The notes under the pieces are model-generated. The model had not been told where the DNA came from. It worked only from the letters and a program-made list of their open reading frames with translations, and did no database searches. Both the position numbers and the translations under genes were made by a program. DNA of 64,000 bases from Owenia fusiformis (taxonomy: Eukaryota), in assembly GCA_903813345.2 (NCBI GenBank), contig CAIIXF020000001.1, positions 22,258,001-22,322,000 on the forward strand. The letters are read 5' to 3'. Below are positions 43,038 through 61,421 of this stretch, piece by piece. Position 1 is the stretch's first letter. Every line of letters begins with the position of its first letter.

Positions 43038-43487
43038 TCTCCACCTTCGAAATACAATATTTCAATTTGAAAACTTTTACTTTTACATATTTGTTGTTAG
43101 CCATGTTTCCTCATCTCATCTGCTTTGGTAATTTGAGACACCGCGTGTCGAAGTGCGCCAAATGAAAAGAAGAGCTTAGTTTAGAATCAAATTTCAACAT
43201 ATCCGGCAGCTCCCCCATCTGATATTGTATTTCATTTAATTGACAAACTAAGAAATTTTGAGACTAATATTTTAACTAAACCAGCTGAGACGAGGAAACC
43301 TTGCCCCATAGTACCTGGTCGCTCCACCATGTCATACTCTGTTATGTTAAGTACTTAATTCGAACATGACTGTATTCACGCATTCTTTAAACTGTAAACA
43401 AAGTCAACATTTCACCTGTGATATATTCGCGATCAATACCCCTGTTAATACGTGTAACGTGTGACGTCATAACGGTGGGTGGTAGTA

Positions 43488-43521
43488 ATGGCGGACCATG
43501 ATGAATATTCGAAACAATTTG
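43488..43521 (+). CDS. Probable first coding exon (MADHDEYSKQF) of an unidentified host gene
   Basis: ATGGCG start, strong donor G|GTGAGT at 43521/43522, and CRE palindrome TGACGTCA at 43462-69. Downstream exons not identified. Confidence 0.45.
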
Positions 43522-43799
43522 GTGAGTTTTCATATTCGAATCGTAATATAGACCTCAGAGCAGGGGTAATATCGTCGAATACACCCCTTGGGGCTAGGCA
43601 CACAAGCTTTCGAACCCCTCACTCCCTTCGGTCGTTCTGTGAACGTGGGGAAATCACAAAAACTAAGAATATTGTAACAGTTAGGCCTTTTTGTGGATAT
43701 TTTGGTAGTGTGGACTAATAGGCCTCTGTATACCTTGTGGGTTACGTGACACACGTTAAATGTGTTTGCACCAAAGATTCAACAGAACTTTTAATTATA

Positions 43800-43805
43800 T
43801 TTATT
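43800..43805 (-). terminator. Candidate poly(A) signal AATAAA in LTR (also 57121-57126)
   Basis: Minus-strand AATAAA ~130 bp from the LTR end, followed by GU-rich sequence. Confidence 0.6.
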
Positions 43806-43968
43806 ACACAACAAACGATATATTGTGGCGTCTGTAGGCCCAAAATTGTGTACATCAAATAGCAAAATGTCCTTATAATAAACTGGAATAGAACCAATGT
43901 TCGTTGTTGTTGTTATTATTCACTGTAAGTCCAAACATATAAGCATCAATTGTGGGATTGGATTGAAG

Positions 43969-44175
43969 TCACACAAAGTTCACTGTACTCAGGCTGAAGC
44001 CAAGCGATGACTGCAACACTGGAATCTGTCTAGTTGGTATTGGAGCAGACTTATCATTAGATTCTTCGTCTGTAGTGGTAATGCAAACACGAGTGCAAAT
44101 TACAAACATCAAACAAAGGAGTACAAACGATATGCTGCCCACAATCAAAGCGATGAAAAGAACATCCAGTTCCAT
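43969..44175 (-). CDS. LTR-encoded 68-aa single-pass membrane micropeptide (3' LTR copy)
   Basis: ATG-initiated and on the element's sense strand. Hydrophobic run VLFIALIVGSISFVLLCLMFVIC, juxtamembrane CTRVC and a polar tail; lies just upstream of the poly(A) signal. Confidence 0.55.
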   Translation of the reverse strand: MELDVLFIALIVGSISFVLLCLMFVICTRVCITTTDEESNDKSAPIPTRQIPVLQSSLGFSLSTVNFV

Positions 44176-44199
44176 ACAAGGACCAGTATCTTGTCTCGT

Positions 44200-46222
44200 G
44201 CAGGTAGCCTCCTCGTGCTAAGTCTAGTGAATCGTCTTCTCCCTCAAGTAGCCTCCTCCGGCTAAGTCTAGTGGATCCTCTTCTCCCTCAGGTAGCCTGC
44301 TCCGGCTAAGTCCAAAAGATCCTCTTCTCCCTCAGGTAGCCTCCTCCGGCTAAGTCCAATGGATCACCTTCCTCAGGAAGTCCGTTCGACAAAGTCGCTA
44401 AAATAAAGACCCAGCCTCAGTGAGTCCGTTCGACAAAGTCAACTGGAACGTCTTCTCCCTCAGGTAGCCTCTTCAGCTAAGTCCAATGGATCCTCTTCTC
44501 CCTCAGGTAGCCTCTTCAGCTAAGTCCAGTGGATCCTCTTCTCCCTCAGGTAGCCTCTTCAGCTAAGTCCAGTGGATCCTCTTCTCCCTCAGGTAGCCTC
44601 CTCTGGGTAAGTCCAATGGATCACCTTCCTCAGGAAGTCCGTTCGACAAAGTCGCTAAAATAAAGACCCAGCCTCAGTGAGTCCGTTCGACAAAGTCAAC
44701 TGGAACGTCTTCTCCCTCAGGTAGCCTCTTCAGCTAAGTCCAATGGATCCTCTTCTCCCTCAGGTAGCCTCTGGCTAAGTCCAATGGATCCTCTTCTCCC
44801 TCAGGTAGCCTCTGGCTAAGTCCAATGGATCCTCTTCTCCCTCAGGTAGCCTCTTCAGCTAAGTCCAGTGGATCCTCTTCTCCCTCAGGTAGCCTCCTCT
44901 GGGTAAGTCCAATGGATCACCTTCCTCAGGAAGTCCGTTCGACAAAGTCGCTAAAATAAAGACCCAGCCTCAGTGAGTCCGTTCGACAAAGTCAACTGGA
45001 ACGTCTTCTCCCTCAGGTAGCCTCTTCAGCTAAGTCCAATGGATCCTCTTCTCCCTCAGGTAGCCTCTTCAGCTAAGTCCAGTGGATCCTCTTCTCCCTC
45101 AGGTAGCCTCTTCAGCTAAGTCCAGTGGATCCTCTTCTCCCTCAGGTAGCCTCCTCTGGGTAAGTCAAATGGATCACCTTCCTCAGGAAGTCCGTTCGAC
45201 AAAGTCGCTAAAATAAAGACCCAGCCTCAGTGAGTCCGTTCGACAAAGTCAACTGGAACGTCTTCTCCCTCAGGTAGCCTCTTCAGCTAAGTCCAATGGA
45301 TCCTCTTCTCCCTCAGGTAGCCTCTGGCTAAGTCCAATGGATCCTCTTCTCCCTCAGGTAGCCTCTGGCTAAGTCCAATGGATCCTCTTCAGCTAAGTCC
45401 AGTGGATCCTCTTCTCCCTCAGGTAGCCTCCTCTGGGTAAGTCCAATGGATCACCTTCCTCAGGAAGTCCGTTCGACAAAGTCGCTAAAATAAAGACCCA
45501 GCCTCAGTGAGTCCGTTCGACAAAGTCAACTGGAACGTCTTCTCCCTCAGGTAGCCTCTTCAGCTAAGTCCAATGGATCCTCTTCTCCCTCAGGTAGCCT
45601 CTTCAGCTAAGTCCAGTGGATCCTCTTCTCCCTCAGGTAGCCTCTTCAGCTAAGTCCAGTGGATCCTCTTCTCCCTCAGGTAGCCTCCTCTGGGTAAGTC
45701 AAATGGATCACCTTCCTCAGGAAGTCCGTTCGACAAAGTCGCTAAAATAAAGACCCAGCCTCAGTGAGTCCGTTCGACAAAGTCAACTGGAACGTCTTCT
45801 CCCTCAGGTAGCCTCTTCAGCTAAGTCCAGTGGATCCTCTTCTCCCTCAGGTAGCCTCCTCTGGGTAAGTCCAATGGATCACCTTCCTCAGGAAGTCCGT
45901 TCGACAGTCGCTAAAATAAAGACCCAGCCTCAGTGAGTCCGTTCGACAAAGTCAACTGGAACGTCTCCCTCAGGTAGCCTCTTCCGGTGAAGTCCAATGG
46001 ATCCTCTTCTCCCTCAGGTAGCCTCCTCCGGCTAAGTCCAATGGATCCTCTTCTCCCTCAGGTAGCCTCTTCAGCTAAGTCCAGTGGATCCTCTTCTCCC
46101 TCAGATAGGCTCCTCCAGCTAAGTCCAATGGATCACCTTCCTCAGGAAGTCCGTTCGACAGTCGCTGAAATAAAGACCCAGCCTCAGTGAGTCCGTTCGA
46201 CAAAGTCAACTGGAACGTCTTC
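44200..46222. repeat. Hierarchical tandem array 1 in 3' LTR (43-bp units punctuated by 8 copies of a ~90-bp block)
   Basis: 43-bp period at 44488/44531/44574; block starts at 44361, 44618, 44914, 45171, 45448, 45705, 45876, 46130. Confidence 0.95.
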
Positions 46223-46249
46223 AGTGAGGAAGTTTCACAATAAATTATC

Positions 46250-47120
46250 TAAGTCAAACTTCAAATAGAACAAAGTCGAAGAATATTTCAAAGTGTGAGT
46301 AAGAAATATTCTAAGTCCAAGTTAGTATAAACGACTAAAATGTATAAGTCCAACTCCAGGTAGATGTACCACAGAACAAAGTCAAAGAATATTTCGAAGT
46401 GCCAGTAAGAAATGTTCTAAGTCCAAGTTAGCATCCACAGCAAAATATACAAGTCCAACTTCAGGTAGATGTATCACAGAACAAAGTCAAAGAATATTAA
46501 AAATGATTAAAATATTCTAAGTCCAAGTTAGCATCCACAGCAAAATATACAAGTCCAACTTCAGGTAGATGTATCACAGAACAAAGTCAAAGAATATTAA
46601 AAATGATTAAAATATTCTAAGTCCAAGTTATCATCTACAGCAAAATATACAAGTCCAACTCCAGGTAGATGTATCACAGAACAAAGTCAAAGAATATTGA
46701 AAATGATTAAAATATTCTAAGTCCAAGTTAGCATCCACAGCAAAATATACAAGTCCAACTTCAGGTAGATGTATCACAGAACAAAGTCAAAGAATATTGA
46801 AAATGATTAAAATATTCTAAGTCCAAGTTAGCATCCACAGCAAAATGTACAAGTCCAACTTCAGGTAGATGTATCACAGAACAAAGTCAAAGAATATTGA
46901 AAATGATTAAAATATTCTAAGTCCAAGTTATCATCTACAGAAAAATGTACAAGTCCAACTAAATTGACTTTGCCAAAGTTTAACCTCAAGTAGATTCGTC
47001 TACAGCCAGGTACATGTGAACAGAACAAAGTCAAAGAATATTAAAAATTGATTAAAATATTCTAAGTCCAAGTTATCATGTACAGAAAATGTCAAAGTCC
47101 AACAAAGTCAAAGTTGTCAA
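46250..47120. repeat. Tandem array 2 in 3' LTR (100-bp unit, ~8 copies)
   Basis: TTCTAAGTCCAAG at 46415, 46515, 46615, 46715, 46815 and 46915, plus degenerate flanking copies. Confidence 0.95.
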
Positions 47121-47912
47121 AATTTACAAAATATCACGAGCGGAGCTCTGTACCAGTCAAAAGCTAAATCAAGTCTCTCTCGAGTGTCAACTTTCTCAGC
47201 TTATATACTCTAGGAGGTTGCCCGGATGACGTACTCGCGCAATACAAAATATTGGCGCAAACTGATTAACCAAATGTTTAAATTACGATTACGGGCCTAC
47301 AGACGTGAAAATAACTCACAAATATGGTTGGTAATTGCGAGTTAATTATACAGATAAGAAATATAATGATAAAGTGTGGAAATACATTCACAATAGGTGG
47401 CTAGAGCAAGTTATTTAATGGAACAGGAAATAAAATGACCGCCGAAATGGCAGACGAGATTGAATTGACATTTCAAATTCACGACCAAATATCTTGAAAA
47501 CTAAACATTATTGCTACCCCTAATTTACAGAAATGATCGCTAATATTGTTATCTATCTAAATAAATCTAAATTAATAATTCAAATGGACTAACTAACCTG
47601 TATTTTTGCGATAAGTACGGAGCTTGAATATTCGAAGTTGTGGCTTAGTGAAGTAACTCTAAATGAGCACTACTAATGAAACGAAAAATACTACATTGAA
47701 ATAATGAGACAGAAAACGAAACTACCTCACTAAAAATAATGAACGCTAGCCGCCTAATTAAATATTGCAATGGGCCACAAATAAATATAATTATCACCAA
47801 AGGACCAGGTAAAATAAGGGAACAAGTGAAGTTGTTGTATTTAATGGCCATAATCTTGAGACTATCCAAATGGAAAACTATAATAATTTTTCAAAAAAAA
47901 TATTTTGTTACA

Positions 47913-47927
47913 CTCCTCCCTTCTTTT
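47913..47927 (-). other. Polypurine tract
   Basis: Minus-strand AAAAGAAGGGAGGAG directly abuts the 3' LTR. Confidence 0.9.
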
Positions 47928-48783
47928 GTTTTTGGTGTTTTCAACACCAAGCATAATTTCTCTTGAACTAACAATATATTTTTTTAAGAAAAATAAACTG
48001 TATTAAACTATAAAAACTTTCTTATCAAAAATAGTTACATTATAAAAATAACTACATTACATCTTACGAAAATATGTTATTTTGATGGCACTACTACTAA
48101 AGATAATTTTACTTTCTCTCATTGGTTATAACCAGGAGTTTTCTATCTCTAGTTTCAAGTGATTACATGCCTATAAACTACATCTCTAGTTACTTGACTT
48201 ATAATAAACTACCAAAACACAAAGTGTGTCCGGTCATAAACATTTACTATCTCTTGTTTCAAGTAACAGCATGACTTATACACTCAAAACATAAAAAGTT
48301 ATGACATGCAACAAAAATGTACCATCTCAAGTTTCAAATGATTACATGATTCATAAACTAGTCTCTAGCGACATGATTTGTAATAAACTACCAATATACA
48401 AAGTGTGTCATGCAATATACAAAAAATAAATGTCTTCACTCATGCACAACCACATTACAATTTCTAAGTCATCATGTGAACTATCTTATTTTAATGCCAG
48501 AACTACTAAACTGTCTTCATACTCTGTCGTTACCATATGTGAGATAAGTATTACAAAAATAAATTCACCCATCACTAATCACCAGGTACTTAAATTACTC
48601 GCCATAAAATCAAGATATAAGCTCATTGTCATACAAAATAATTGTAAACAGCTCATGTACGAAGCAAAATAATTATCTCTCCATTAAAAACTGATCATCT
48701 TTTCTAAGTCCTAATAACAGTCTCTTATAATATCTGGTTATATTTTCTAAGTCCTCATAATAGTCTCTATCACACTAGAATCT

Positions 48784-50169
48784 TTATATTTTGAGATCGC
48801 TATATCGACTTACCAATGTCTCATCTTCTATCACTGAACCGTCCCTGGCAAAATACCTAAAACGGATCTCCATTTTGATAGGGTTACGGATTGTCCCCCT
48901 TTGGTAGTCCTCATATTCATCGGTTTCCTCATCCTGTAAACGTTGTAACTCCACCCTGGGTTGTTGGTTCAACTTTACATCTTCCTCATCCGAGCTATCT
49001 ACCACATATTTCTTGCTCTTTGGCGCTTTTCGAACTCTTTTGTTATGTGGCTTTGATGACGCCCCCTCAACTACTACTGTCCGACTATCCATTTTTTCAA
49101 CCTCTTCTATTTCACTCTCCACTTTATTGTCCTGACCAGACTTGTCCTTGACTACTCTTTTACCCTGTTTAGAGGTTGTCTTTGCCTTCTCTTCGTAGGT
49201 TTTCTTGATGTCATGATCGGTTGGTTTTACTGTCCCATCGCTGACTCTCTTACTGTCTTTATCTGTGGGTTTCTTTGTGTCATTAGTAGTTTTCTTAATG
49301 TTTTTATCAGTGGTGTTCTTGTCTTTTTCAGTGGTTTTCTTAGGATCAGTGGTTTGCTTTATGTCTTTATCAGTTTTCTTAGTGTCTTTTTCAGTGGTTT
49401 TCTTAGGATCTTTGTCGGTGATTTGCTTTATGTCTTTATCAGTTTTCTTAGTGTCCTTATCGGTTGGTCTCTTCATGTCATCGCTCTTTTCGTTATTGTT
49501 ACTGTCTATCGCTATTTTCTCTGGTGATTTCTCTTTCACGCTTGGTTCTTTCTTACTATCCAATATCTTACCCCACACTGATAAAACTCCCTCTACCCTC
49601 TTGGTTTTGTCAGCAGGTTCTTCCCCGGTTGAAAGGCATGGTACGGGTTTATCAACGGTAGGTGGTACTGACACTGTCATGGGAGAGTTCTTTTCAGGGG
49701 GCGCTCCCAAGCTTGCTGAAGGTGGATAGGTTGTGGTGCAAGGCGTCTGTAAACCTTGCAGTAGTCCTGAAATCTGTCGCATAATTTGTATCCCCTCTGG
49801 ACTTTGCAGACTTGCGACTTGTTCTTCCTGACTAAATGCCTTACTAGAGGACAGGGAGGACCTCTCCCACCTGGCGAATTTATCTACTCTGTTATAGTCC
49901 CTGCTGGAAGCTCCGTCCCTATCATGGTCCCTCTTTTGATCCTGATCTCTATTACGATAGTCTCTTTCTGTTTCTCTATGATCTGTCCCTCTGTCGTTCT
50001 CTCTCCGGTTGGAAGCTCTGCCCCTATCATGGTCCCTACTTTGACCCTGGTCTCTATTGCGATAGTCTCTGTCTGTCTCTCTACTACGGGAGCGATCCCT
50101 TCGGTCTTGGGACCCATATCTGTCATCCCGGCCTCCATAGTCCCTACGCCCGTGTCCTCTGTGAGACAT
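48784..50169 (-). CDS. Putative spliced accessory ORF3 (461 aa, disordered, not Env), in frame with integrase
   Basis: Acceptor CTCTTTTTGTATTTCCAG| (AG 50184-83) lies 13 nt before ATG 50169, right after the integrase-terminal-like RVRKPPKRFADY motif. Confidence 0.55.
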   Translation of the reverse strand: MSHRGHGRRDYGGRDDRYGSQDRRDRSRSRETDRDYRNRDQGQSRDHDRGRASNRRENDRGTDHRETERDYRNRDQDQKRDHDRDGASSRDYNRVDKFARWERSSLSSSKAFSQEEQVASLQSPEGIQIMRQISGLLQGLQTPCTTTYPPSASLGAPPEKNSPMTVSVPPTVDKPVPCLSTGEEPADKTKRVEGVLSVWGKILDSKKEPSVKEKSPEKIAIDSNNNEKSDDMKRPTDKDTKKTDKDIKQITDKDPKKTTEKDTKKTDKDIKQTTDPKKTTEKDKNTTDKNIKKTTNDTKKPTDKDSKRVSDGTVKPTDHDIKKTYEEKAKTTSKQGKRVVKDKSGQDNKVESEIEEVEKMDSRTVVVEGASSKPHNKRVRKAPKSKKYVVDSSDEEDVKLNQQPRVELQRLQDEETDEYEDYQRGTIRNPIKMEIRFRYFARDGSVIEDETLVSRYSDLKI

Positions 50170-53100
50170 TCTTTCTTGGTACCTGGAAATACAAAAAGAG
50201 GTCTCTAAGTCATAGTCCGCAAAGCGTTTTGGGGGTTTACGAACTCGCTTACCAACACAGTTCTTAACTTTATCAGACACATTATTATCTGACTTTGGCT
50301 TATCACACGCAGTAGGCTCCCAAAAATCTGTGTCCATCTGGCCATCAGGATCTTCCTTCTTCGACACTTCCTTGGCTTCAAAGTCCGAAGGTTCAGTATT
50401 CTTCTTGGATGCCCTTTTGTCAGTCGCCTCGTTCTTCAGTTCTTCAGATTTGTAGTCCTCATTCTTCAACTCCGGCTCGGTCTCCTCATTCTTCAGTTCT
50501 TCAGACTTGTAGTCCAATGGATCGGTGTGTATCTCCACCATCTTAGGTTCGGTATCCTCATTCTTCAGTTCTTCAGATTTGTAGTCCTCATTCTTCAACT
50601 CCGGCTCGGTCTCCTCATTCTGCACTTCTTCAGATTTGCAGTCCTCATTCTTCAACTCCGGCTGGTTAGGTTTGAAATCAAATGGGTCTGCTGCTAGCTC
50701 GGACATCTTTGGAATGGTCCCTTCTTGTGGTATAGTCCAACCGTCTGGAAGGCAACTCTCGTAAGGCTTCATCTGATCGAAATGTACCACCCTAGGCTTG
50801 ATCTTTCCCCACTCACGGATACGATACGTCACATCTGACATCTTTTGGAGGACCTGAAATGGACCAATCCATTTACATTGTAATTTAGGAGACACCCCTT
50901 TCTTCTTAGTGTTGTTTTTTAACCACACAGCTTCCCCTATAGTGTATCCCTTCCCTGAAACCCGCCGATCATAAGCATCTCGTTGCCGTTGATTGGCTTT
51001 CTTCAACACTTGGCTGGCGCGCTCATGTGCATCTCTTAAGCCTTGTCTAAGTTCAATCACGTAATCCGTCTTAGTTTCTTCTGATACAGGGTTTTCCACT
51101 ATCCAGGATACTGGCACAGCCAACTCCCTTCCGAACATCATCATTGCTGGTGTCTCCCCTGTCGCCTCGTGAGTGGATGTGCGATAGGCCAGCAATGCAT
51201 AAGGAATCTTTACATCCCAGTCGTATTGATGAACATCAGGCTGTAACAGTTTAGCAATAGTATCCAATAGAGTCCGATTGTACCTCTCCACCATCCCGTT
51301 GCTCTGCGGATGGAAGGGTGTAGTACGGGTCTTGTGAATCCCCATCAATTCACAGATTTCTTGAAATACATGAGACTCAAAATTTCTGCCTTGATCTGAG
51401 TGCAGTTCTGCTGGGGCTCCAAATCTGCAAACAACCTCGTTTACCAACTTATCAGCTACAGTTGTGGCTTCTTGATTAGGGAGAGGGTAGGCTTCAACCC
51501 ACTTCGAGAAGTAGTTGGCACACACCATTATCACCTTATTCCCTCTTGGTGTCTCGGGGAATGGTCCCAAAATATCCACAGCATAACGCTCCATAGGAGA
51601 ACTAACTCCTTGGACCTGCATGGGAGCTCTTCTAGCCTTCAAGGGTTTTCTTCTGGTTCCACAGGTGTGGCAAGAGCGCACAACTCCTCTAACATCGACT
51701 CTCTGCTCAAACCAATAGAATCTCTGTCGGCTCTTCAGGAAGGTGCGACGGACACCAAAATGTCCGGCAACCTTGTTAGAGTGGCTCATCTCTAGAACAA
51801 TCGCCTTCATTGGAGATGGAACTAGTATCTGTAGATGACCATGCTCCCCACTGGCATCCTCCCATCTGTTGCAAAGTACATTGTTGTTGATCTCAAGTTG
51901 ATTCCAAAGGTGCCAATAATGCTTTGTAGCGGGCGAATTGTAACTGATCTTATCCCAAGTTGGTCTGATTGAAGAAGTTCGCAGAGCCTCTAATATAGGC
52001 TGTATCTCAGGATCTTGTCCTTGTGCCTCCGCAATTTTCTCCAAAGTCCAAGTTGGTTCAACAGAGACCACAGAGATTGCTACCTGAAGCACATCTTCCT
52101 GTTCCACCTCATCACAATGTGAACACTGGTGACAGGGCCGTCTGGACATAACATCAGCGTTCGCATGTTTTGGTCCTGGGCGATATTCCAGTTGGTAGTT
52201 ATACTCCTGTAGTACCTCCAGCCATCGAGCTAGTTGTCCCTCTGGATTCCTGAAGTTAGTTAACCACCTCAATGATCCATGGTCTGAACGAATGGTAAAT
52301 CTGACCCCATACAAGTATTGGCGAAAATACTTGACAAAAAATACCACAGCTAAAAGTTCCTTGCGAGTCACGCAGTAATTCAACTCTGGTCCATTCAACC
52401 GATGACTTGCATAGTATATCACCCGCTCTTCATTGTCTTGAATCTGGGATAACACAGCACCCAAAGCTTCATGACTGGCATCCGTGTCTAAAATATAGGG
52501 ACAATCATCTCTGGGAAAAGATAAGATAGGTGCTGTAGTTAACATCTCCTTCAAAGCAACAAAGGCCTCCTCTGCTTCAGGATTCCACATAAATCTCTGA
52601 TTCTTTCGTGTCAACTTGTGTAAAGGACCGGCTATTTCGGCAAAGTTTTTGATATGCCTTCTGTAGTAAGAAGCCCCTCCTACAAATTGTCGGACATGTT
52701 TTACTGTCCTTGGAGTAGGGTACTGCACCATAGCTGCTATCTTCTCCGGGTCTGGTGCAATGCCATCACCAGAAACAACATGGCCGAGGAAGTTCACTTT
52801 AGTCTGGAACAGGGTACACTTGCTAGGTTTCATCTTCAATCCAGCTCGGCGAAGACAACCAAATACCCTTTCTAAGCGACCAATCGCTTGTTCAAACGTG
52901 GGGGCGAATGAAATCACATCGTCCAAATAAACCAGAGAACCATCATCTTTCAAACCACTAAGAACTTCTTCCATCAGGCGACAAAATGTCGAAGGTGCAT
53001 TCGATAAGCCAAATGGCATCACAGTCCATTGGTAAAGTCCACCTCTTACTGTGAACGCTGACTTCTCTTGAGCGTCTTTATCCAATAAGACCTGCCAATA

Positions 53101-53352
53101 CCCACTTGCAAGATCCAGTGTGCTGAAATACTTCGATCCATTCAGCATATCCAAGGTTTCATCGATTCTAGGAATTGGGAAAGCGTCTTTCTTCGTAACA
53201 CTATTAAGTTTTCGGTAATCGACGCAGAATCTCCATGAGCCGTCTTTCTTTCTTACAAGTACTATGGGTGACGCCCACGGACTCTGGGAGGGCTCGATTA
53301 TACCTCGCTTCATCATGTCTTCAATAAGATCAGTCACAGTATCCTGACGACT
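48784..53352 (-). CDS. pol: Pol: RT, RNase H, integrase (GPY/F) and long low-complexity extension; in frame with gag-PR across one TGA
   Basis: SPWASP, RFCVDYRKLN, MPFGL, YLDD, DTDAS, HANAD, H-H-C-C zinc finger, VDILGP/HSDQG/NGMVER, WIGPF. Confidence 0.95.
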   Translation of the reverse strand, partial: SRQDTVTDLIEDMMKRGIIEPSQSPWASPIVLVRKKDGSWRFCVDYRKLNSVTKKDAFPIPRIDETLDMLNGSKYFSTLDLASGYWQVLLDKDAQEKSAFTVRGGLYQWTVMPFGLSNAPSTFCRLMEEVLSGLKDDGSLVYLDDVISFAPTFEQAIGRLERVFGCLRRAGLKMKPSKCTLFQTKVNFLGHVVSGDGIAPDPEKIAAMVQYPTPRTVKHVRQFVGGASYYRRHIKNFAEIAGPLHKLTRKNQRFMWNPEAEEAFVALKEMLTTAPILSFPRDDCPYILDTDASHEALGAVLSQIQDNEERVIYYASHRLNGPELNYCVTRKELLAVVFFVKYFRQYLYGVRFTIRSDHGSLRWLTNFRNPEGQLARWLEVLQEYNYQLEYRPGPKHANADVMSRRPCHQCSHCDEVEQEDVLQVAISVVSVEPTWTLEKIAEAQGQDPEIQPILEALRTSSIRPTWDKISYNSPATKHYWHLWNQLEINNNVLCNRWEDASGEHGHLQILVPSPMKAIVLEMSHSNKVAGHFGVRRTFLKSRQRFYWFEQRVDVRGVVRSCHTCGTRRKPLKARRAPMQVQGVSSPMERYAVDILGPFPETPRGNKVIMVCANYFSKWVEAYPLPNQEATTVADKLVNEVVCRFGAPAELHSDQGRNFESHVFQEICELMGIHKTRTTPFHPQSNGMVERYNRTLLDTIAKLLQPDVHQYDWDVKIPYALLAYRTSTHEATGETPAMMMFGRELAVPVSWIVENPVSEETKTDYVIELRQGLRDAHERASQVLKKANQRQRDAYDRRVSGKGYTIGEAVWLKNNTKKKGVSPKLQCKWIGPFQVLQKMSDVTYRIREWGKIKPRVVHFDQMKPYESCLPDGWTIPQEGTIPKMSELAADPFDFKPNQPELKNEDCKSEEVQNEETEPELKNEDYKSEELKNEDTEPKMVEIHTDPLDYKSEELKNEETEPELKNEDYKSEELKNEATDKRASKKNTEPSDFEAKEVSKKEDPDGQMDTDFWEPTACDKPKSDNNVSDKVKNCVGKRVRKPPKRFADYDLETSFCISRYQERMSHRGHGRRDYGGRDDRYGSQDRRDRSRSRETDRDYRNRDQGQSRDHDRGRASNRRENDRGTDHRETERDYRNRDQDQKRDHDRDGASSRDYNRVDKFARWERSSLSSSKAFSQEEQVASLQSPEGIQIMRQISGLLQGLQTPCTTTYPPSASLGAPPEKNSPMTVSVPPTVDKPVPCLSTGEEPADKTKRVEGVLSVWGKILDSKKEPSVKEKSPEKIAIDSNNNEKSDDMKRPTDKDTKKTDKDIKQITDKDPKKTTEKDTKKTDKDIKQTTDPKKTTEKDKNTTDKNIKKTTNDTKKPTDKDSKRVSDGTVKPTDHDIKKTYEEKAKTTSKQGKRVVKDKSGQDNKVESEIEEVEKMDSRTVVVEGASSKPHNKRVRKAPKSKKYVVDSSDEEDVKLNQQPRVELQRLQDEETDEYEDYQRGTIRNPIKMEIRFRYFARDGSVIEDETLVSRYSDLKI

Positions 53353-56300
53353 TCAGGGTAACATGCGATATCTTTGCTTTATTGGTGGAGTATTCCCGGT
53401 GTCTATGCTGTGCTCTACTAGAGTTGTCTTACCCAAGTCACCATCTCTTTGGGCAAAAATATCTTGATTCCTCACAAGTAGTGATTGAAGTTGATCACTC
53501 TGATTCTGTGTAAGTCCACATGAACTTCTTTCAAATAAGGCCTGCATAAAATCTGGCAATGGTATAAGTCCTTCTTCAGCTCCCTCTGAAGTTGAAAGTG
53601 GGCAAACGACCTCTTGTTTAACTTTTTCCAAATTCACATGGTAGGTCTCATCATCCACCAAAGTGAAGACTCCCAAAGTTTCTCCTTGGAGGACGGATAC
53701 TTCGAAGTCGTTATTGTTCCGCACTTCTATATAGCTGACCTGATTAGCATCAGCTAATATGGTTACCACTTCAAGTTCATCCATCTGGGTATCAGATAAG
53801 TGGGGTTCAATAATGCCCACCCCCACTAGTGGTTCCCTCAACCGAACCTCGATACATCTACCAGAGTAAGGAGGTATGACCACTTCATCCTCAGAGCAGT
53901 TGTAACAAAATGTAGATTGTTGTTGAGCACACATCTGTCTCAAATCGGGAAATACATCATCTTCCAAGTCCAAACTCTCTTGAGACCCATGTGGCGTTTC
54001 TGGAATAACGATAGGTTCCGCTGGGGGACTGTCAGGAAACTGTACCTCTGGTTCAGGCGACGGAGTTTCAGGTACAAATAGTTCCCAGGCATCCTCAAAA
54101 ACTTGAGAATCTTCTGATTCCTCTGTGTCTTCCTCGACTACAGACAGGGGACTATCAGGAATTTCTATCTTGACTCTAGGTGAAGGTGTCTCAGGTCTAG
54201 GTTCTACCATTCTCTTCACTTGTGTTGAACTTGGTCCAGCTTCAGCTGATTCTTTTAAACTCTTTGTAGTCCTGGGCTTGGATCCAACAACCTCCAATGC
54301 TGAGCCGCTACTACTACTTTCATTTCTTGATAACTTAGTACTGCAGCTACAGAAGTGATCAGATTCGTCTGACTCAGGTCCCTCAGGATCATCAAGTTGA
54401 TCTTCTGCTGCACCAGAGTTATCTTGTGCCCCAAAACTAAGTCGACAGCGATGGTAATCTACTATAGCTCCAGATGCGGACAAATAGTCGCTTCCCAAAA
54501 TTCCATCAAAGTCTATGTTGGCTACAGCAATCTCCATCTCTTCGGTATGTCCATCTATATTAACAGTACCAAGGATAACTCCCATCATGGCCAGTGGTTC
54601 CCCATCTGCTTGGACCATAACATGGTTTGGAGGTAACAACTTTGGGCGATATCGAGGGTTCATCCTACGATAAACTTCACCACTCACAATGGTACGCACT
54701 GCTCCAGAATCTAACAAAAAGATCACATCAGTGCCACAGACATCGCCATGAGCTATAACCTTCCGAACATCCTTAGGGGATTTGTTCTTGGTAACATCTC
54801 TCCCTGAATGAGACAGGAATTTCACCGGGGCAGTCTGATTCGATCCAGCTTGGGCCTCTCTGGCTCTCTCTTCATTTCGTTTCCTCGAATAACAGTCGGC
54901 CATCACGTGTCCTGATTTGTGACAGTAGAAACACTCAACTTTTCTATTTCGGTTTCCTCTCGATTCGAACCCAGGCTTCTTTTGTTGTTCCAATAACTCC
55001 ACCATTTTCTCTAAGTTCTTGCTGCATTCCACTTGTACGCTTTTCTGGATATTCTCTATCAGTTGGGTAATCTGCTTGAACTCACTCTCTTTTTCTTCCA
55101 ACGCACTTATTCTACCGTATTTTGGCTTTTGTCCTTTTCTAATCCGTTCAGACTCTAAGTAGGACTCTTCCTTCAGAGCGATTTCTATTGCCTTATCCAG
55201 AGTGGTACATTCTTTTGCGTGGATTGCTCTGCGTATGTCCTCTTCTACTATAGCTTGTTCAAAGCTGCGTCTGGCAAGGCGGTCTTGAGATGATCTGCTC
55301 ATTTCAGGGTAGGCCAATGCCGTAAGCCGTCGGATGTCTTGACCCAAGGTTTGAAGTGATTCTTTGGGCTTCCTCATTCGACCAACAAGTTCCGCCTCGT
55401 AGATTTCTGCTTTGCCACCAGGCCCGAACCTCTTCTCCAAGGCCAGGATCAACTGCTCATAGGTGTATCCCTCTTCCAACTCTAACACAATCTGCTGTGC
55501 TGGACCTCGCAGACTTGTGGCCAGGTACTGGTTCTTCTCCTCCGAAGTCCATCTATTGGCTTTACAGCAAATCTCGAAGTAAGCGCGATACTCTTGCCAT
55601 GGAGTTGTACCATTAAAAGTGTCAGGCTTAATTCGGCTCTTGGATTTGGGCCTGTCATCTTGGGACAACTTATCACAGAAGTTGTTGAACATCTTGAGGA
55701 AATCTGTAGAAACACCAGGTATATTAGTATCATCTTTCGAAATCTTCGGTTCAGGGGAATCAAAACCCGAGAATTTATTATCTTCTTCAAATCTAGTTCT
55801 TATATCAGAATATGGTGCCGTATGATCACTGCTTCTAGGTGGATGTCCATCCCTTTCTCTTTGGCTCTTAAACTCGTTAGCGTCCCAGCCTCCAGGAAGA
55901 TACACTTCATCAGGTTTATTAAACAGTATAGTGGGATCTCTGTGGTCTGTTTGGTGTTTAGTTGGCACATAGACTCTGTCTTGTCTTTGTAAAGACCATG
56001 GTCGCTTCCTTTGAGGAGGAAAGGACTCTGGAATATCCTCATCTTCTAAATCTTGTTTTTGACTCATTGGCATCGTAGGTGATTTGAACGGTTGCCTCTG
56101 AGATTTTCCTGCAGAATCTGGCCTAGGGTTCTCATCAAACTCTGAAGGACAACCAACATCTTCGTAGTTTCGTGACCTCGAAACGACTTCTTGCTGAACT
56201 GGAGGAATGGTCAAAGTAGAGTGCAACTTGTCAATAGACTCACCAATAGTCTTCTGGAAAGATTCCATGTAATGTTGCATCTCTTGTAAGCGGCGATCTT

Positions 56301-56931
56301 GTATTCCCGCAATCTCTTGTAGTCGCCTCTCATGCTTTTGCTCACTGCCTTGTTGAATATTCTTGGTCTCCGCAAGGTGTTCCACTATTTGGGACATGCT
56401 ACTGGTCTGTATCTGCTGAGTTGTTGTTATGGCATTCAACTGTTTCTGTTGTGTATCCGCAATGTCACCTAACACAGACATCTTCCCTTTGAGCTGTCCC
56501 TCAATCATAGTTAGTTCTTGTCTAATCTCTTCGGCTGCTTGAACTTTGTCTGAGGGCCGATTAATGATAGTTGATGTCAATGGGAAACGTGGTCTTGGGG
56601 GAGGATTCCTTCTATCTCGAATCATGGGATGTGCCGGAGTTCCCATATTATCTAAGTCTCCTCCTGTCCAGTAGCCTGTACTTTGTATGCCAGGAAAAAT
56701 GCTCATTTCAGAATCCACCTTCGAATCTTTAGCTCTGGCGCCTACACCAAGTTGATCCTCTGGTTGATCAGACAATGGTTCTCCATCTTGTTGCACAGGT
56801 AAAGTTTCATCTTCAGCTCCAGGATTTTCCACTTCAGCTGACTCTGGTTTCAGGAACACTGTCTTCTCCATGTCAGACTCGTCTCCATCTCTTGGATAAG
56901 GAAGACCTGCCTCTAGTTCCATCTTGTCCAT
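53353..56931 (-). CDS. gag: Gag-protease polyprotein (1192 aa)
   Basis: Capsid KPDTFNGTTPWQEY...W...LATSLRGPA, knuckle CFYCHKSGHVMADC, protease FLLDSGA...GILGSDYL, then an acidic linker and a possibly dUTPase-like degenerate segment. Confidence 0.95.
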   Translation of the reverse strand: MDKMELEAGLPYPRDGDESDMEKTVFLKPESAEVENPGAEDETLPVQQDGEPLSDQPEDQLGVGARAKDSKVDSEMSIFPGIQSTGYWTGGDLDNMGTPAHPMIRDRRNPPPRPRFPLTSTIINRPSDKVQAAEEIRQELTMIEGQLKGKMSVLGDIADTQQKQLNAITTTQQIQTSSMSQIVEHLAETKNIQQGSEQKHERRLQEIAGIQDRRLQEMQHYMESFQKTIGESIDKLHSTLTIPPVQQEVVSRSRNYEDVGCPSEFDENPRPDSAGKSQRQPFKSPTMPMSQKQDLEDEDIPESFPPQRKRPWSLQRQDRVYVPTKHQTDHRDPTILFNKPDEVYLPGGWDANEFKSQRERDGHPPRSSDHTAPYSDIRTRFEEDNKFSGFDSPEPKISKDDTNIPGVSTDFLKMFNNFCDKLSQDDRPKSKSRIKPDTFNGTTPWQEYRAYFEICCKANRWTSEEKNQYLATSLRGPAQQIVLELEEGYTYEQLILALEKRFGPGGKAEIYEAELVGRMRKPKESLQTLGQDIRRLTALAYPEMSRSSQDRLARRSFEQAIVEEDIRRAIHAKECTTLDKAIEIALKEESYLESERIRKGQKPKYGRISALEEKESEFKQITQLIENIQKSVQVECSKNLEKMVELLEQQKKPGFESRGNRNRKVECFYCHKSGHVMADCYSRKRNEERAREAQAGSNQTAPVKFLSHSGRDVTKNKSPKDVRKVIAHGDVCGTDVIFLLDSGAVRTIVSGEVYRRMNPRYRPKLLPPNHVMVQADGEPLAMMGVILGTVNIDGHTEEMEIAVANIDFDGILGSDYLSASGAIVDYHRCRLSFGAQDNSGAAEDQLDDPEGPESDESDHFCSCSTKLSRNESSSSGSALEVVGSKPRTTKSLKESAEAGPSSTQVKRMVEPRPETPSPRVKIEIPDSPLSVVEEDTEESEDSQVFEDAWELFVPETPSPEPEVQFPDSPPAEPIVIPETPHGSQESLDLEDDVFPDLRQMCAQQQSTFCYNCSEDEVVIPPYSGRCIEVRLREPLVGVGIIEPHLSDTQMDELEVVTILADANQVSYIEVRNNNDFEVSVLQGETLGVFTLVDDETYHVNLEKVKQEVVCPLSTSEGAEEGLIPLPDFMQALFERSSCGLTQNQSDQLQSLLVRNQDIFAQRDGDLGKTTLVEHSIDTGNTPPIKQRYRMLP

Positions 56932-56973
56932 CTTGTAAGTTCTCTAGTTCTGGCTCGTCTTTGGAAACAATTC

Positions 56974-56992
56974 AATCCCACCGCTGCCACCA
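56974..56992 (-). other. Primer-binding site, tRNA-Leu
   Basis: Plus-strand AATCCCACCGCTGCCACCA matches the 3' end (with CCA) of animal tRNA-Leu AAG/TAG as I recall it; 1 nt from the 5' LTR. Confidence 0.85.
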
Positions 56993-57289
56993 GTGTAACA
57001 GTTAGGCCTTTTTGTGGATATTTTGGTAGTGTGGACTAATAGGCCTCTGTATACCTTGTGGGTTACGTGACACACGTTAAATGTGTTTGCACCAAAGATT
57101 CAACAGAACTTTTAATTATATTTATTACACAACAAACGATATATTGTGGCGTCTGTAGGCCCAAAATTGTGTACATCAAATAGCAAAATGTCCTTATAAT
57201 AAACTGGAATAGAACCAATGTTCGTTGTTGTTGTTATTATTCACTGTAAGTCCAAACATATAAGCATCAATTGTGGGATTGGATTGAAG

Positions 57290-57496
57290 TCACACAAAGT
57301 TCACTGTACTCAGGCTGAAGCCAAGCGATGACTGCAACACTGGAATCTGTCTAGTTGGTATTGGAGCAGACTTATCATTAGATTCTTCGTCTGTAGTGGT
57401 AATGCAAACACGAGTGCAAATTACAAACATCAAACAAAGGAGTACAAACGATATGCTGCCCACAATCAAAGCGATGAAAAGAACATCCAGTTCCAT
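57290..57496 (-). CDS. LTR-encoded 68-aa membrane micropeptide (5' LTR copy)
   Basis: Translation identical to 43969-44175. Confidence 0.55.
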   Translation of the reverse strand: MELDVLFIALIVGSISFVLLCLMFVICTRVCITTTDEESNDKSAPIPTRQIPVLQSSLGFSLSTVNFV

Positions 57497-60400
57497 ACAA
57501 GGACCAGTATCTTGTCTCGTGCAGGTAGCCTCCTCGTGCTAAGTCTAGTGAATCGTCTTCTCCCTCAAGTAGCCTCCTCCGGCTAAGTCTAGTGGATCCT
57601 CTTCTCCCTCAGGTAGCCTGCTCCGGCTAAGTCCAAAAGATCCTCTTCTCCCTCAGGTAGCCTCCTCCGGCTAAGTCCAATGGATCACCTTCCTCAGGAA
57701 GTCCGTTCGACAAAGTCGCTAAAATAAAGACCCAGCCTCAGTGAGTCCGTTCGACAAAGTCAACTGGAACGTCTTCTCCCTCAGGTAGCCTCTTCAGCTA
57801 AGTCCAATGGATCCTCTTCTCCCTCAGGTAGCCTCTTCAGCTAAGTCCAGTGGATCCTCTTCTCCCTCAGGTAGCCTCTTCAGCTAAGTCCAGTGGATCC
57901 TCTTCTCCCTCAGGTAGCCTCCTCTGGGTAAGTCCAATGGATCACCTTCCTCAGGAAGTCCGTTCGACAAAGTCGCTAAAATAAAGACCCAGCCTCAGTG
58001 AGTCCGTTCGACAAAGTCAACTGGAACGTCTTCTCCCTCAGGTAGCCTTTTCAGCTAAGTCCAATGGATCCTCTTCTCCCTCAGGTAGCCTCTGGCTAAG
58101 TCCAATGGATCCTCTTCTCCCTCAGGTAGCCTCTGGCTAAGTCCAATGGATCCTCTTCTCCCTCAGGTAGCCTCTTCAGCTAAGTCCAGTGGATCCTCTT
58201 CTCCCTCAGGTAGCCTCCTCTGGGTAAGTCCAATGGATCACCTTCCTCAGGAAGTCCGTTCGACAAAGTCGCTAAAATAAAGACCCAGCCTCAGTGAGTC
58301 CGTTCGACAAAGTCAACTGGAACGTCTTCTCCCTCAGGTAGCCTCTTCAGCTAAGTCCAATGGATCCTCTTCTCCCTCAGGTAGCCTCTTCAGCTAAGTC
58401 CAGTGGATCCTCTTCTCCCTCAGGTAGCCTCTTCAGCTAAGTCCAGTGGATCCTCTTCTCCCTCAGGTAGCCTCCTCTGGGTAAGTCAAATGGATCACCT
58501 TCCTCAGGAAGTCCGTTCGACAAAGTCGCTAAAATAAAGACCCAGCCTCAGTGAGTCCGTTCGACAAAGTCAACTGGAACGTCTTCTCCCTCAGGTAGCC
58601 TCTTCAGCTAAGTCCAATGGATCCTCTTCTCCCTCAGGTAGCCTCTGGCTAAGTCCAATGGATCCTCTTCTCCCTCAGGTAGCCTCTGGCTAAGTCCAAT
58701 GGATCCTCTTCAGCTAAGTCCAGTGGATCCTCTTCTCCCTCAGGTAGCCTCCTCTGGGTAAGTCCAATGGATCACCTTCCTCAGGAAGTCCGTTCGACAA
58801 AGTCGCTAAAATAAAGACCCAGCCTCAGTGAGTCCGTTCGACAAAGTCAACTGGAACGTCTTCTCCCTCAGGTAGCCTCTTCAGCTAAGTCCAATGGATC
58901 CTCTTCTCCCTCAGGTAGCCTCTTCAGCTAAGTCCAGTGGATCCTCTTCTCCCTCAGGTAGCCTCTTCAGCTAAGTCCAGTGGATCCTCTTCTCCCTCAG
59001 GTAGCCTCCTCTGGGTAAGTCAAATGGATCACCTTCCTCAGGAAGTCCGTTCGACAAAGTCGCTAAAATAAAGACCCAGCCTCAGTGAGTCCGTTCGACA
59101 AAGTCAACTGGAACGTCTTCTCCCTCAGGTAGCCTCTTCAGCTAAGTCCAGTGGATCCTCTTCTCCCTCAGGTAGCCTCCTCTGGGTAAGTCCAATGGAT
59201 CACCTTCCTCAGGAAGTCCGTTCGACAGTCGCTAAAATAAAGACCCAGCCTCAGTGAGTCCGTTCGACAAAGTCAACTGGAACGTCTCCCTCAGGTAGCC
59301 TCTTCCGGTGAAGTCCAATGGATCCTCTTCTCCCTCAGGTAGCCTCCTCCGGCTAAGTCCAATGGATCCTCTTCTCCCTCAGGTAGCCTCTTCAGCTAAG
59401 TCCAGTGGATCCTCTTCTCCCTCAGATAGGCTCCTCCAGCTAAGTCCAATGGATCACCTTCCTCAGGAAGTCCGTTCGACAGTCGCTGAAATAAAGACCC
59501 AGCCTCAGTGAGTCCGTTCGACAAAGTCAACTGGAACGTCTTCAGTGAGGAAGTTTCACAATAAATTATCTAAGTCAAACTTCAAATAGAACAAAGTCGA
59601 AGAATATTTCAAAGTGTGAGTAAGAAATATTCTAAGTCCAAGTTAGTATAAACGACTAAAATGTATAAGTCCAACTCCAGGTAGATGTACCACAGAACAA
59701 AGTCAAAGAATATTTCGAAGTGCCAGTAAGAAATGTTCTAAGTCCAAGTTAGCATCCACAGCAAAATATACAAGTCCAACTTCAGGTAGATGTATCACAG
59801 AACAAAGTCAAAGAATATTAAAAATGATTAAAATATTCTAAGTCCAAGTTAGCATCCACAGCAAAATATACAAGTCCAACTTCAGGTAGATGTATCACAG
59901 AACAAAGTCAAAGAATATTAAAAATGATTAAAATATTCTAAGTCCAAGTTATCATCTACAGCAAAATATACAAGTCCAACTCCAGGTAGATGTATCACAG
60001 AACAAAGTCAAAGAATATTGAAAATGATTAAAATATTCTAAGTCCAAGTTAGCATCCACAGCAAAATATACAAGTCCAACTTCAGGTAGATGTATCACAG
60101 AACAAAGTCAAAGAATATTGAAAATGATTAAAATATTCTAAGTCCAAGTTAGCATCCACAGCAAAATGTACAAGTCCAACTTCAGGTAGATGTATCACAG
60201 AACAAAGTCAAAGAATATTGAAAATGATTAAAATATTCTAAGTCCAAGTTATCATCTACAGAAAAATGTACAAGTCCAACTAAATTGACTTTGCCAAAGT
60301 TTAACCTCAAGTAGATTCGTCTACAGCCAGGTACATGTGAACAGAACAAAGTCAAAGAATATTAAAAATTGATTAAAATATTCTAAGTCCAAGTTATCAT

Positions 60401-60521
60401 GTACAGAAAATGTCAAAGTCCAACAAAGTCAAAGTTGTCAAAATTTACAAAATATCACGAGCGGAGCTCTGTACCAGTCAAAAGCTAAATCAAGTCTCTC
60501 TCGAGTGTCAACTTTCTCAGC

Positions 60522-60576
60522 TTATATACTCTAGGAGGTTGCCCGGATGACGTACTCGCGCAATACAAAATATTGG
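60522..60576 (-). promoter_or_regulatory. Candidate LTR core promoter: TATATAA with upstream CRE-like TGACGTA and CCAAT (also 47201-47255)
   Basis: Minus-strand GTATATAAG ~700 bp into the LTR, just upstream of array 2. Confidence 0.6.
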
Positions 60577-61421
60577 CGCAAACTGATTAACCAAATGTTT
60601 AAATTACGATTACGGGCCTACAGACGTGAAAATAACTCACAAATATGGTTGGTAATTGCGAGTTAATTATACAGATAAGAAATATAATGATAAAGTGTGG
60701 AAATACATTCACAATAGGTGGCTAGAGCAAGTTATTTAATGGAACAGGAAATAAAATGACCGCCGAAATGGCAGACGAGATTGAATTGACATTTCAAATT
60801 CACGACCAAATATCTTGAAAACTAAACATTATTGCTACCCCTAATTTACAGAAATGATCGCTAATATTGTTATCTATCTAAATAAATCTAAATTAATAAT
60901 TCAAATGGACTAACTAACCTGTATTTTTGCGATAAGTACGGAGCTTGAATATTCGAAGTTGTGGCTTAGTGAAGTAACTCTAAATGAGCACTACTAATGA
61001 AACGAAAAATACTACATTGAAATAATGAGACAGAAAACGAAACTACCTCACTAAAAATAATGAACGCTAGCCACCTAATTAAATATTGCAATGGGCCACA
61101 AATAAATATAATTATCACCAAAGGACCAGGTAAAATAAGGGAACAAGTGAAGTTGTTGTATTTAATGGCCATAATCTTGAGACTATCCAAATGGAAAACT
61201 ATAATAATTTTTCAAAAAAAATATTTTGTTACAATATGTATCGGCTTTAAATGTTTTTATTCTCCAACGTCACACAGGACTAAAAACACTCCTGAAACAC
61301 AGGAATACAAGATTTGTTTAACATCGAATGCCTTTTTATAGCAAACATTCAAAAATTGTAATCTTAATTCCCACTCTGATTCTGTAGATTACTGTAGGTC
61401 AAACTCATGTTTATACAATTA

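What the first reader, a model, noticed from the sequence alone, without database searches (positions are those of the whole stretch)
44200..47120. Two unrelated LTR arrays converge on about 60 sense-strand GGACU (m6A DRACH) sites
Seen: hand count gives ~44 AGTCC in array 1 and ~16 in array 2 on the plus strand, i.e. GGACU in element RNA, plus many UGACU. I saw essentially none in the opposite orientation. The motif occurs in several distinct contexts (43-bp unit, twice in the 90-bp block, twice in the 100-bp unit) and also near 43927 and 48706/48750, so one amplified unit does not explain it. Known: GGACU is the preferred METTL3/14 site, read by YTH proteins. Inference: the LTR may build an m6A-dense RNA platform for export, stability, cap-independent translation across the long leader, or reader titration.
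Basis: partly seen in the sequence, partly recalled or inferred. Interest (0 to 1): 0.8.

Follow-up and report, generated by a model that had tools for sequence, protein, structure and literature searches.

The report
GGACU-rich tandem arrays in retrotransposon LTR
The 60 GGACU sites are real and are transcribed in the sense strand, but they come mainly from amplification of one short repeat unit inside the long terminal repeat of a young gypsy-type retrotransposon, and nothing yet shows they were selected as RNA-methylation sites.

Summary
The count is exact. The + strand has 44 + 16 AGTCC and 0 GGACT in 44200-47120, and the other LTR copy has the same 60/0. The arrays lie in the 4240-bp LTRs of a 17.5-kb minus-strand Ty3/gypsy element. 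The element is young: its LTRs differ at 2 positions, it has a 4-bp target duplication, and another run holds an empty-site contig.

The claim of "unrelated arrays, several contexts" does not hold.
- Array 1 is one ~43-nt monomer family: 46 monomers in a 257-nt higher-order unit. The only invariant blocks are CT..CTGAG and GAC(TT).
- Array 2 shares three words with array 1 on the same strand. 0 of 2000 shuffles reach the observed sharing.

On de-duplicated monomers:
- GGACT is 5 against 0.99 expected (4 of 5000 shuffles).
- DRACH as a class is not enriched (8 against 8.06).
- Some 5-mer reaches a count of 5 in 333 of 2000 shuffles.

Stranded RNA-seq reads cover the arrays in the same direction as the coding region. 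Methylation could not be tested.

Best reading: the count is a by-product of repeat amplification in a probably very long R region. An evolved m6A or RNA-binding-protein platform, or a DNA-level binding-site array, remain open rivals.

The parts
43673..47912 (-). 3' LTR of the element (4240 bp, TG..CA ends)
   Evidence: Fixed-offset (13321) identity with 56994-61233, 2 mismatches (44728, 47752); ends read
44200..46225 (-). Array 1: 46 monomers of one ~43-nt family in a 257-nt higher-order unit (types A-A-A-B-C-D); 44 sense GGACT (28 in-unit, 16 at B/C and C/D monomer junctions)
   Evidence: TRF periods 43 and 257; monomer parsing and alignment; contexts
46226..47120 (-). Array 2: AT-rich 100-nt unit, about 6.8 copies plus degenerate ends; 16 sense GGACT, 2 per unit
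   Evidence: TRF; counts; contexts
47201..47207 (-). Only TATATAA of the sense LTR; putative promoter about 85 nt upstream of array 2 (inferred)
   Evidence: start site not shown by reads (table 6: none)
43800..43805 (-). Only AATAAA of the sense LTR; putative poly(A) signal (inferred), which places both arrays in R
47913..47933 (-). Polypurine tract abutting the 3' LTR
   Evidence: Read (AAAAGAAGGGAGGAG then TGTAACA)
48704..48754 (-). Two further sense GGACTTAG words in the 3' untranslated stretch, a local duplication
48784..53352 (-). RT - RNase H - integrase ORF with a long low-complexity tail
   Evidence: Pfam RVT_1 3.5e-35, RT_RNaseH, Integrase_H2C2, rve; translation
53353..56931 (-). gag (CCHC) - protease ORF, ending in an in-frame TGA directly before the RT ORF
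56974..56992 (-). Primer-binding site, TGG... one base after the 5' LTR
   Evidence: Read; the tRNA assignment is recalled, not tested
56994..61233 (-). 5' LTR, with the same two arrays at 57521-60441 (60 AGTCC, 0 GGACT on +)
43669..43672 (.). Target-site duplication ATAT; the second copy is at 61234-61237

Best explanation
The 60 sense GGACU per LTR are mainly the arithmetic result of amplifying a short repeat unit inside the LTR of a young, probably still active Ty3/gypsy retrotransposon. One ancestral ~43-nt monomer already carried GACUU. It diverged into four subtypes and was amplified as a 257-nt higher-order unit. A 100-nt AT-rich unit built from the same words was amplified next to it. 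The single TATA box and the single AATAAA put both arrays in an unusually long R region of about 3.4 kb. Each genomic RNA would then carry the arrays at both ends, with 144 GGACU predicted in all. Reverse-transcriptase strand transfer within R, or unequal recombination, could expand and shrink the arrays at each cycle (inferred). The two blocks kept across all monomer subtypes, CUGAG and GACUU, may mark a sequence-specific factor, but no selection for m6A sites as such is shown. The RNA appears unspliced and GGACU is the optimal writer site. If the host has the standard METTL3/14 writer, heavy methylation would therefore be an expected consequence, not a demonstrated adaptation.
For: Element anatomy: LTR pair, PPT, PBS, gag-PR-RT-RH-INT. 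Youth: 2 mismatches in 4240 bp, TSD ATAT, and an empty-site contig in run X1 whose loose end at 43672 equals the window from 61238 on. All 44 aligned monomers of array 1 form one family, and only CT..CTGAG and GAC(+TT) are invariant. The GGACT of the '90-bp block' lie at monomer junctions of subtypes B and C, which share their 3' halves. The arrays share three words on the same strand, 0 of 2000 shuffles reaching it. At monomer level DRACH is at expectation (8 against 8.06), and some 5-mer reaches 5 in 333 of 2000 shuffles. There is one TATATAA and one AATAAA in the sense LTR. One X1 contig skips 46 nt inside array 1 (table 5), as expected for copy-number variants. Tandem repeats inside LTR retrotransposons are a described phenomenon (PMC7004042 and PMC9659126; titles and abstract starts seen in the listing).
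Against: For the pre-specified word GGACT, the monomer-level excess is real (5 against 0.99; 4 of 5000). The block conserved across diverged monomer subtypes contains exactly the methylation core GAC plus U. Variants at the position before it are mostly still DRACH: T in 9 monomers, A in 2. GGACT also arose at a second position, the monomer junction. Further sense copies lie outside the arrays at 43928, 48704 and 48747. In the internal region sense GGACT is 22 against 10.3 (first-order) or 14.8 (third-order) expected, and antisense is 6. Local alignment of the array-2 unit to array 1 is not significant (26 of 500 and 55 of 500 shuffles reach it), so common descent of the two arrays is not proven. 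Start and end of the RNA are inferred from consensus signals only.
Confidence: 0.5

Rival explanations
1. Evolved RNA-level platform. The arrays are kept because many GGACU (or GACUU) sites on the sense RNA recruit the m6A writer and its readers, or a protein that reads GGAC directly such as an IGF2BP/ZBP1-type KH protein. This would promote export, stability, translation or packaging of the unspliced RNA.
For: The arrays are transcribed in the same direction as the coding region in 3 of 3 stranded RNA-seq runs. For example, X15 array bins read 7.97/5.14/1.79/3.38 with first mate on + against 0.52/0.13/0/0.79 on -. GGACT is 5 against 0.99 on de-duplicated monomers, and GAC(TT) is invariant across monomer subtypes. 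The array RNA is not unusually structured (z 0.06 and -1.84), so sites would be accessible. Precedents: an m6A cluster in the L1 5'UTR promotes translation (PMC7873242, abstract read). [quoted passage not shown] ZBP1 KH4 reads GGA and IMP1 reads m6A (PMC5300891 and PMC10484666, listing).
Against: DRACH as a class is not enriched (8 against 8.06). 8 C-type monomers have non-DRACH CGACT at the conserved position. Conservation extends beyond what the writer needs (TTGGACTTAG, and a second block CTGAG). All copies are related by descent, so strand consistency carries no weight. In mouse, m6A on the IAP 5'UTR destabilises the RNA (10.1101/2020.03.24.005488, passages read), so dense sites could be a liability. 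The one distant relative found has an array without the motif. Methylation and the host writer are untested.
Confidence: 0.2
2. DNA-level regulatory array. The monomers are multimerised binding sites for host transcription factors or insulator proteins downstream of the promoter, as in the leader regions of some insect gypsy-type and copia elements (recalled). GGACT is simply part of the site.
For: Two short invariant blocks are separated by variable spacers in every monomer. The words recur at regular spacing directly downstream of the only TATA box. The conserved words are longer than DRACH (10-mers TTGGACTTAG and TTGACTTTGT).
Against: No factor could be assigned, since no binding-site library is among the tools. 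The resemblances to CCAAT and HMG-box sites are recalled, not tested. All words have one orientation, which DNA sites do not need, although descent explains that too.
Confidence: 0.2

Closest known systems
Tandem-repeat arrays inside LTR retrotransposons (LTR or untranslated regions), sources of satellite DNA
   Same: Short monomers amplified head to tail inside the non-coding part of a Ty3/gypsy element, with higher-order structure and signs of copy-number variants. The phenomenon is described in PMC7004042 and PMC9659126 (listing).
   Different: The cited descriptions, as far as I saw them, mostly concern plants. Here the host is an invertebrate animal, and the arrays fill about 69% of a 4.2-kb LTR and probably lie in R.
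m6A clusters in retroelement leaders (mouse IAP 5'UTR; human L1 5'UTR)
   Same: Many writer-consensus sites in the untranslated part of an unspliced retroelement RNA (papers).
   Different: There, methylation was measured and shown to depend on METTL3. Here nothing is measured, the sites are tandem copies of one unit, and the density (1 per ~49 nt over 2.9 kb) is far higher.
m6A on satellite-repeat transcripts (mouse major satellite)
   Same: A tandem-repeat RNA carrying writer sites in every unit (PMC8191757, title and abstract start seen in the listing).
   Different: That is a chromosomal satellite with a heterochromatin role. This is part of a mobile element's genomic RNA.
Binding-site arrays in the leaders of insect retrotransposons (gypsy Su(Hw) sites, copia leader enhancer; recalled, no call)
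   Same: Repeated short motif with spacers just downstream of the LTR promoter.
   Different: Those arrays are a dozen sites over a few hundred bases, outside the LTR, with a known binding protein. No protein is known here.

Membership tests
Ty3/gypsy LTR retrotransposon (Metaviridae) | Two direct LTRs with TG..CA ends and a short target-site duplication | tested here: met
   4240-bp LTRs, 2 mismatches; TGTAACA...TGTTACA ends; ATAT on both sides
Ty3/gypsy LTR retrotransposon (Metaviridae) | Domain order gag - protease - RT - RNase H - integrase | tested here: met
   Pfam hits in that order on the minus strand; CCHC knuckle in the translation. The nearest named proteins are '412'-type Pol at about 49-50% identity, and the best full-length hit is 56%
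Ty3/gypsy LTR retrotransposon (Metaviridae) | PBS next to the 5' LTR and PPT next to the 3' LTR | tested here: met
   Read directly. Which tRNA primes is recalled (Leu-like), not tested
m6A-regulated retroelement RNA (IAP/L1 type) | Cluster of writer-consensus sites on the sense transcript | tested here: inconclusive
   GGACT is enriched (5 against 0.99, 4 of 5000), but DRACH as a class is not (8 against 8.06), and the look-elsewhere rate is 333 of 2000. Sense transcription is seen
m6A-regulated retroelement RNA (IAP/L1 type) | Measured, writer-dependent methylation of those sites | not testable with these tools
   No direct-RNA or m6A-IP data could be reached. No host genome is held
m6A-regulated retroelement RNA (IAP/L1 type) | Writer or reader dependence of RNA level, translation or mobility | not testable with these tools
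   Experimental
LTR-internal tandem-repeat array (satellite seed) | Head-to-tail monomers of one family within the LTR | tested here: met
   46 monomers, 17 distinct sequences among the 44 aligned, 257-nt higher-order unit
LTR-internal tandem-repeat array (satellite seed) | Array length varies among copies, or arrays also stand alone in the genome | tested here: inconclusive
   One X1 contig skips 46 nt in array 1. Summed word depth in array bins (up to 1533) lies far above the internal region (about 26-60), but that measure is not a copy number
DNA-level binding-site array (gypsy insulator / leader enhancer type) | A defined protein binds the repeated motif | not testable with these tools
   No transcription-factor motif library or binding data available

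The most novel reading that the evidence does not exclude
An invertebrate gypsy-type retrotransposon has evolved a kilobase-scale R region in which every ~43-nt monomer keeps a GACUU core. Each genomic RNA would then carry about 120 optimal writer sites at its two ends. These would act as a multivalent dock for m6A readers or GGAC-reading KH proteins and so control export, translation across a 3.5-kb AUG-burdened leader, or packaging.
Probability: 0.12. Interest if true: 0.6.

Novelty: new member of a known kind. Interest (0 to 1): 0.3.

Why it matters
If the arrays were shown to be methylated and to act through readers, this would be the first case of a mobile element multiplying writer sites by tandem amplification. 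It would also extend the mammalian IAP and L1 findings to invertebrates. As it stands, the locus is a clean, very young, insertion-polymorphic giant gypsy element. It probably has a multi-kilobase R region, which is useful as a test bed for how LTR-internal arrays arise and change. The GGACU count itself is not evidence of function.

Tried and rejected
- Run index: no RNA holder listed. The three raw RNA runs of the same species label were laid instead.
- Relatives: the metagenome scan gave one distant locus, L001 (37% aa identity). The viral-contig protein scan gave none. Two exact-pattern scans of viral contigs with array words gave 0 matches.
- gag-protease ORF: no protein at E <= 1e-10 among 5002 candidates.
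- Pol: 6584 hits, none above 64% identity among the 120 listed, so no family member with retrievable DNA.
- Rfam on 43400-49000: 0 matches at E <= 0.1.
- RNA folding of a higher-order unit (z 0.06) and of two array-2 units (z -1.84) shows no clear structure.
- Smith-Waterman alignment of the array-2 unit to array 1 is not above shuffles (26 of 500 and 55 of 500 reach it). Relatedness therefore rests on shared words only.
- The bacterial-type promoter/terminator scan is irrelevant for a eukaryote. It did show a 7-bp hairpin in each C-type monomer.
- Considered and dropped without test: a coding reading of the arrays (monomer lengths of 41-44 nt break every frame, and the + strand has stops in each unit); resemblances to the U1 5' end or splice sites and to CCAAT/HMG boxes (recalled only).

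Full report
**Observation.**
- The + strand of 44200-46225 holds 44 AGTCC and no GGACT. 46226-47120 holds 16 and none. AGTCA is 19 against TGACT 1, and AGTC 90 against GACT 2.
- In the 43.7 kb left of the element the two orientations are 18 and 14. The bias therefore belongs to the element, not to the genome.

**What the locus is.**
- A direct repeat at offset 13321 defines two 4240-bp LTRs, 43673-47912 and 56994-61233. They differ at 2 positions.
- The LTRs end in TGTAACA...TGTTACA and are flanked by ATAT on both sides.
- The coding strand is the minus strand:
  - a TGG-initiated primer-binding site lies one base after the upstream LTR;
  - a gag (CCHC)-protease frame follows;
  - an in-frame TGA comes next;
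  - then an RT-RNase H-integrase frame with a long low-complexity tail;
  - a polypurine tract abuts the downstream LTR.
- The nearest named proteins are Ty3/gypsy Pol of arthropods ('transposon 412' type) and an abalone protein, at about 49-56% identity over the full region. No close family member is in the protein collection, and gag has no hit at all.
- A SOCS-box frame at 41915-42559 marks the host as an animal.
- A contig of run X1 joins position 43672 directly to the sequence that follows the second ATAT (table 7). This is an empty site, so the insertion is polymorphic and recent.

**Position of the arrays in the RNA.**
- Read in element sense, the LTR has a single TATATAA (window 47207) about 85 nt before array 2. 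It has a single AATAAA (window 43805) about 130 nt before the LTR end.
- By inference, U3 is about 0.73 kb, R about 3.4 kb and U5 about 0.1 kb. Both arrays would lie in R and so occur at both ends of the genomic RNA.
- The predicted 16.7-kb RNA has 144 GGACU and 8 in the other sense.
- Even if the start site lay elsewhere in the LTR, the arrays would still be transcribed as part of the 3' end.
- The leader would hold 15 upstream AUGs: 0 in array 1, 8 in array 2 and 7 after the arrays.

**RNA evidence.**
- Three raw stranded RNA-seq runs of the same species label were laid on 43400-57300.
- Depth is low: 254, 218 and 190 reads were laid, from about 6-12% of each run.
- Most reads are 95-99% alike (201 of 254 in X15), so many come from other copies.
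- Across the internal region and the arrays, almost all pairs have the first mate on +. The neighbouring flank repeat shows both directions.
- The arrays are therefore transcribed in the same direction as the coding region, which is the GGACU sense.
- Array 1 bins reach 2-8, array 2 bins 0.3-1.3, U3 0-0.9 and the internal region 0-1.7.
- The excess over array 1 may reflect extra genomic copies of the monomer. X1 summed word depth reaches 1533 there against about 26-60 inside, but that measure is not a copy number.
- No start or end pile-up was reported (table 6).

**Anatomy of the arrays.**
- Array 1 was cut at a CTACCTGAGG-like anchor (up to 2 mismatches). This gives 46 monomers, 44 of them 40-44 nt long.
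- The other 2, of 65 and 62 nt, were left out of the alignment.
- The 17 distinct sequences align as one family of four subtypes:
  - A: CTACCTGAGGGAGAAGAGGATCCAYTGGACTTAGC...
  - B: ...CGTTCCAGTTGACTTTGTCGAACGGA
  - C: CTCACTGAGGCTGGGTCTTTATTTTAGCGACTTTGTCGAACGGA
  - D: CTTCCTGAGGAAGGTGATCCATTGGACTTACCC...
- They are arranged A-A-A-B-C-D, which sums to 257 nt.
- The only invariant columns are CT..CTGAG and GAC, followed by TT in at least 85% of sequences.
- The base before GAC is G in A and D (28 GGACT), T in B and two D variants, C in the 8 C-type monomers (not DRACH), and A in 2 end units.
- The other 16 GGACT lie across the B|C and C|D junctions (...CGAACGGA|CT...). B and C share that 3' half.
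- Array 1 therefore has two origins of the word, not three independent contexts.

**Relation of the two arrays.**
- Array 2's unit reads CTACCTGAAG-TTGGACTTGT...AACTTGGACTTAG...CTTTGACTTTGTTC. It contains array 1's three words in the same orientation.
- A higher-order unit and an array-2 unit share 7 8-mers against 0.5 in dinucleotide shuffles. 0 of 2000 shuffles reach this, and the opposite strand shares 0.
- Gapped local alignments are not above shuffles.
- The arrays are thus not unrelated in content. Whether this reflects descent or a common constraint cannot be decided here.

Three real monomers of 43, 97 and 100 nt were used, with 5000 dinucleotide shuffles.

| Word | Observed | Shuffle mean | Shuffles reaching it |
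|---|---|---|---|
| GGACT, sense | 5 | 0.99 | 4 of 5000 |
| GACT, sense | 8 | 3.87 | 67 of 5000 |
| DRACH, sense | 8 | 8.06 | 3168 of 5000 |
| DRACH, antisense | 2 | 4.38 | - |

- Some 5-mer reaches a count of 5 in 333 of 2000 shuffled sets.
- The top 5-mer is GACTT (7).
- In the internal region sense GGACT is 22 against 10.3 (first-order) or 14.8 (third-order) expected, and antisense is 6. Three of the 22 sit in a coding tandem repeat.

**Relatives.**
- Only one distant locus could be fetched: L001, 37% amino-acid identity in Pol. Downstream of pol it has a 68-bp x 3.6 array with no GGACT or AGTCC in 2501-3500.
- It is unknown whether that array lies in an LTR. This is weak evidence against a conserved motif.

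**Reading.**
- The count is best explained by amplification of a monomer that happened to contain, or was kept for, GACUU.
- The evidence does not single out m6A. DRACH as a class is at expectation, one subtype has a non-DRACH base, and the conserved words are longer than the writer needs. A second block (CUGAG) is equally conserved.
- The m6A idea is not refuted:
  - the conserved core is exactly GAC+U;
  - the RNA is made in the right sense;
  - the array RNA is not strongly folded;
  - published work reports default methylation of consensus sites away from exon junctions (10.1101/2022.06.29.498130 and PMC9990141, abstract starts in the listing).
- Precedents point both ways. An L1 5'UTR m6A cluster promotes translation (PMC7873242, abstract). 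IAP 5'UTR m6A shortens RNA half-life (10.1101/2020.03.24.005488, passages).
- GGAC is also read directly by IGF2BP/ZBP1 KH domains (PMC5300891 and PMC10484666, listing).
- A DNA-level binding-site array, as in insect gypsy and copia leaders (recalled), fits the two-block monomer design equally well.

**Verdict.** The locus is a new member of a known kind: a gypsy-type element with LTR-internal tandem arrays. The methylation platform is a testable but so far unsupported idea.

Noticed in passing
window 53353-53355 (minus strand): A single in-frame TGA separates the gag-protease frame from the RT-RNase H-integrase frame, and both are in the same reading frame. In an element with near-identical LTRs this could be programmed read-through or a recent disabling change.
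   Followed up: no
window 43672 / 61238; run X1: One X1 contig continues from 43672 straight into the sequence found at 61238. This is an empty insertion site with one ATAT, so the element is insertion-polymorphic (table 7).
   Followed up: partly
window 43969-44175 (minus strand), and the same in the 5' LTR: A 68-aa ATG-started frame in the LTR just after array 1, with a hydrophobic stretch (LFIALIVGSISFVLLCLMFVIC). Three X15 reads skip 43971-44140 (168 nt, non-canonical ends) inside it (table 5).
   Followed up: no
window 43400-43660: The left flank is a very high-copy repeat. X1 summed depth is 27,223 against about 26-60 in the element. It is expressed on both strands and has many loose ends at fixed places.
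   Followed up: no
window 44200-46225 (minus strand): Array 1 has no ATG in the sense strand over 2026 nt; 37 would be expected from base composition, though at monomer level only a few. Array 2 has 8 and the stretch after the arrays has 7.
   Followed up: partly
window 44407-46194, eight places (minus strand): Each C-type monomer can form a 7-pair hairpin, GGACUCA-loop-UGGGUCU, followed by a U-rich run. In these 8 copies the GGACU would be in a stem.
   Followed up: no
window 48784-50800 (minus strand): The integrase frame continues for about 650 aa of low-complexity sequence (RD/RS-like and K-rich repeats). It is partly encoded by 57-nt and 21-63-nt tandem repeats at 50423-50663 and 49248-49465.
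   Followed up: no
window 9727-12069 (minus strand); 41915-42559 (+); 25490-26492: A LINE-type reverse-transcriptase frame (RVT_1, zf-RVT), a SOCS-box frame, and a 360-bp x 2.9 tandem repeat lie elsewhere in the window.
   Followed up: no
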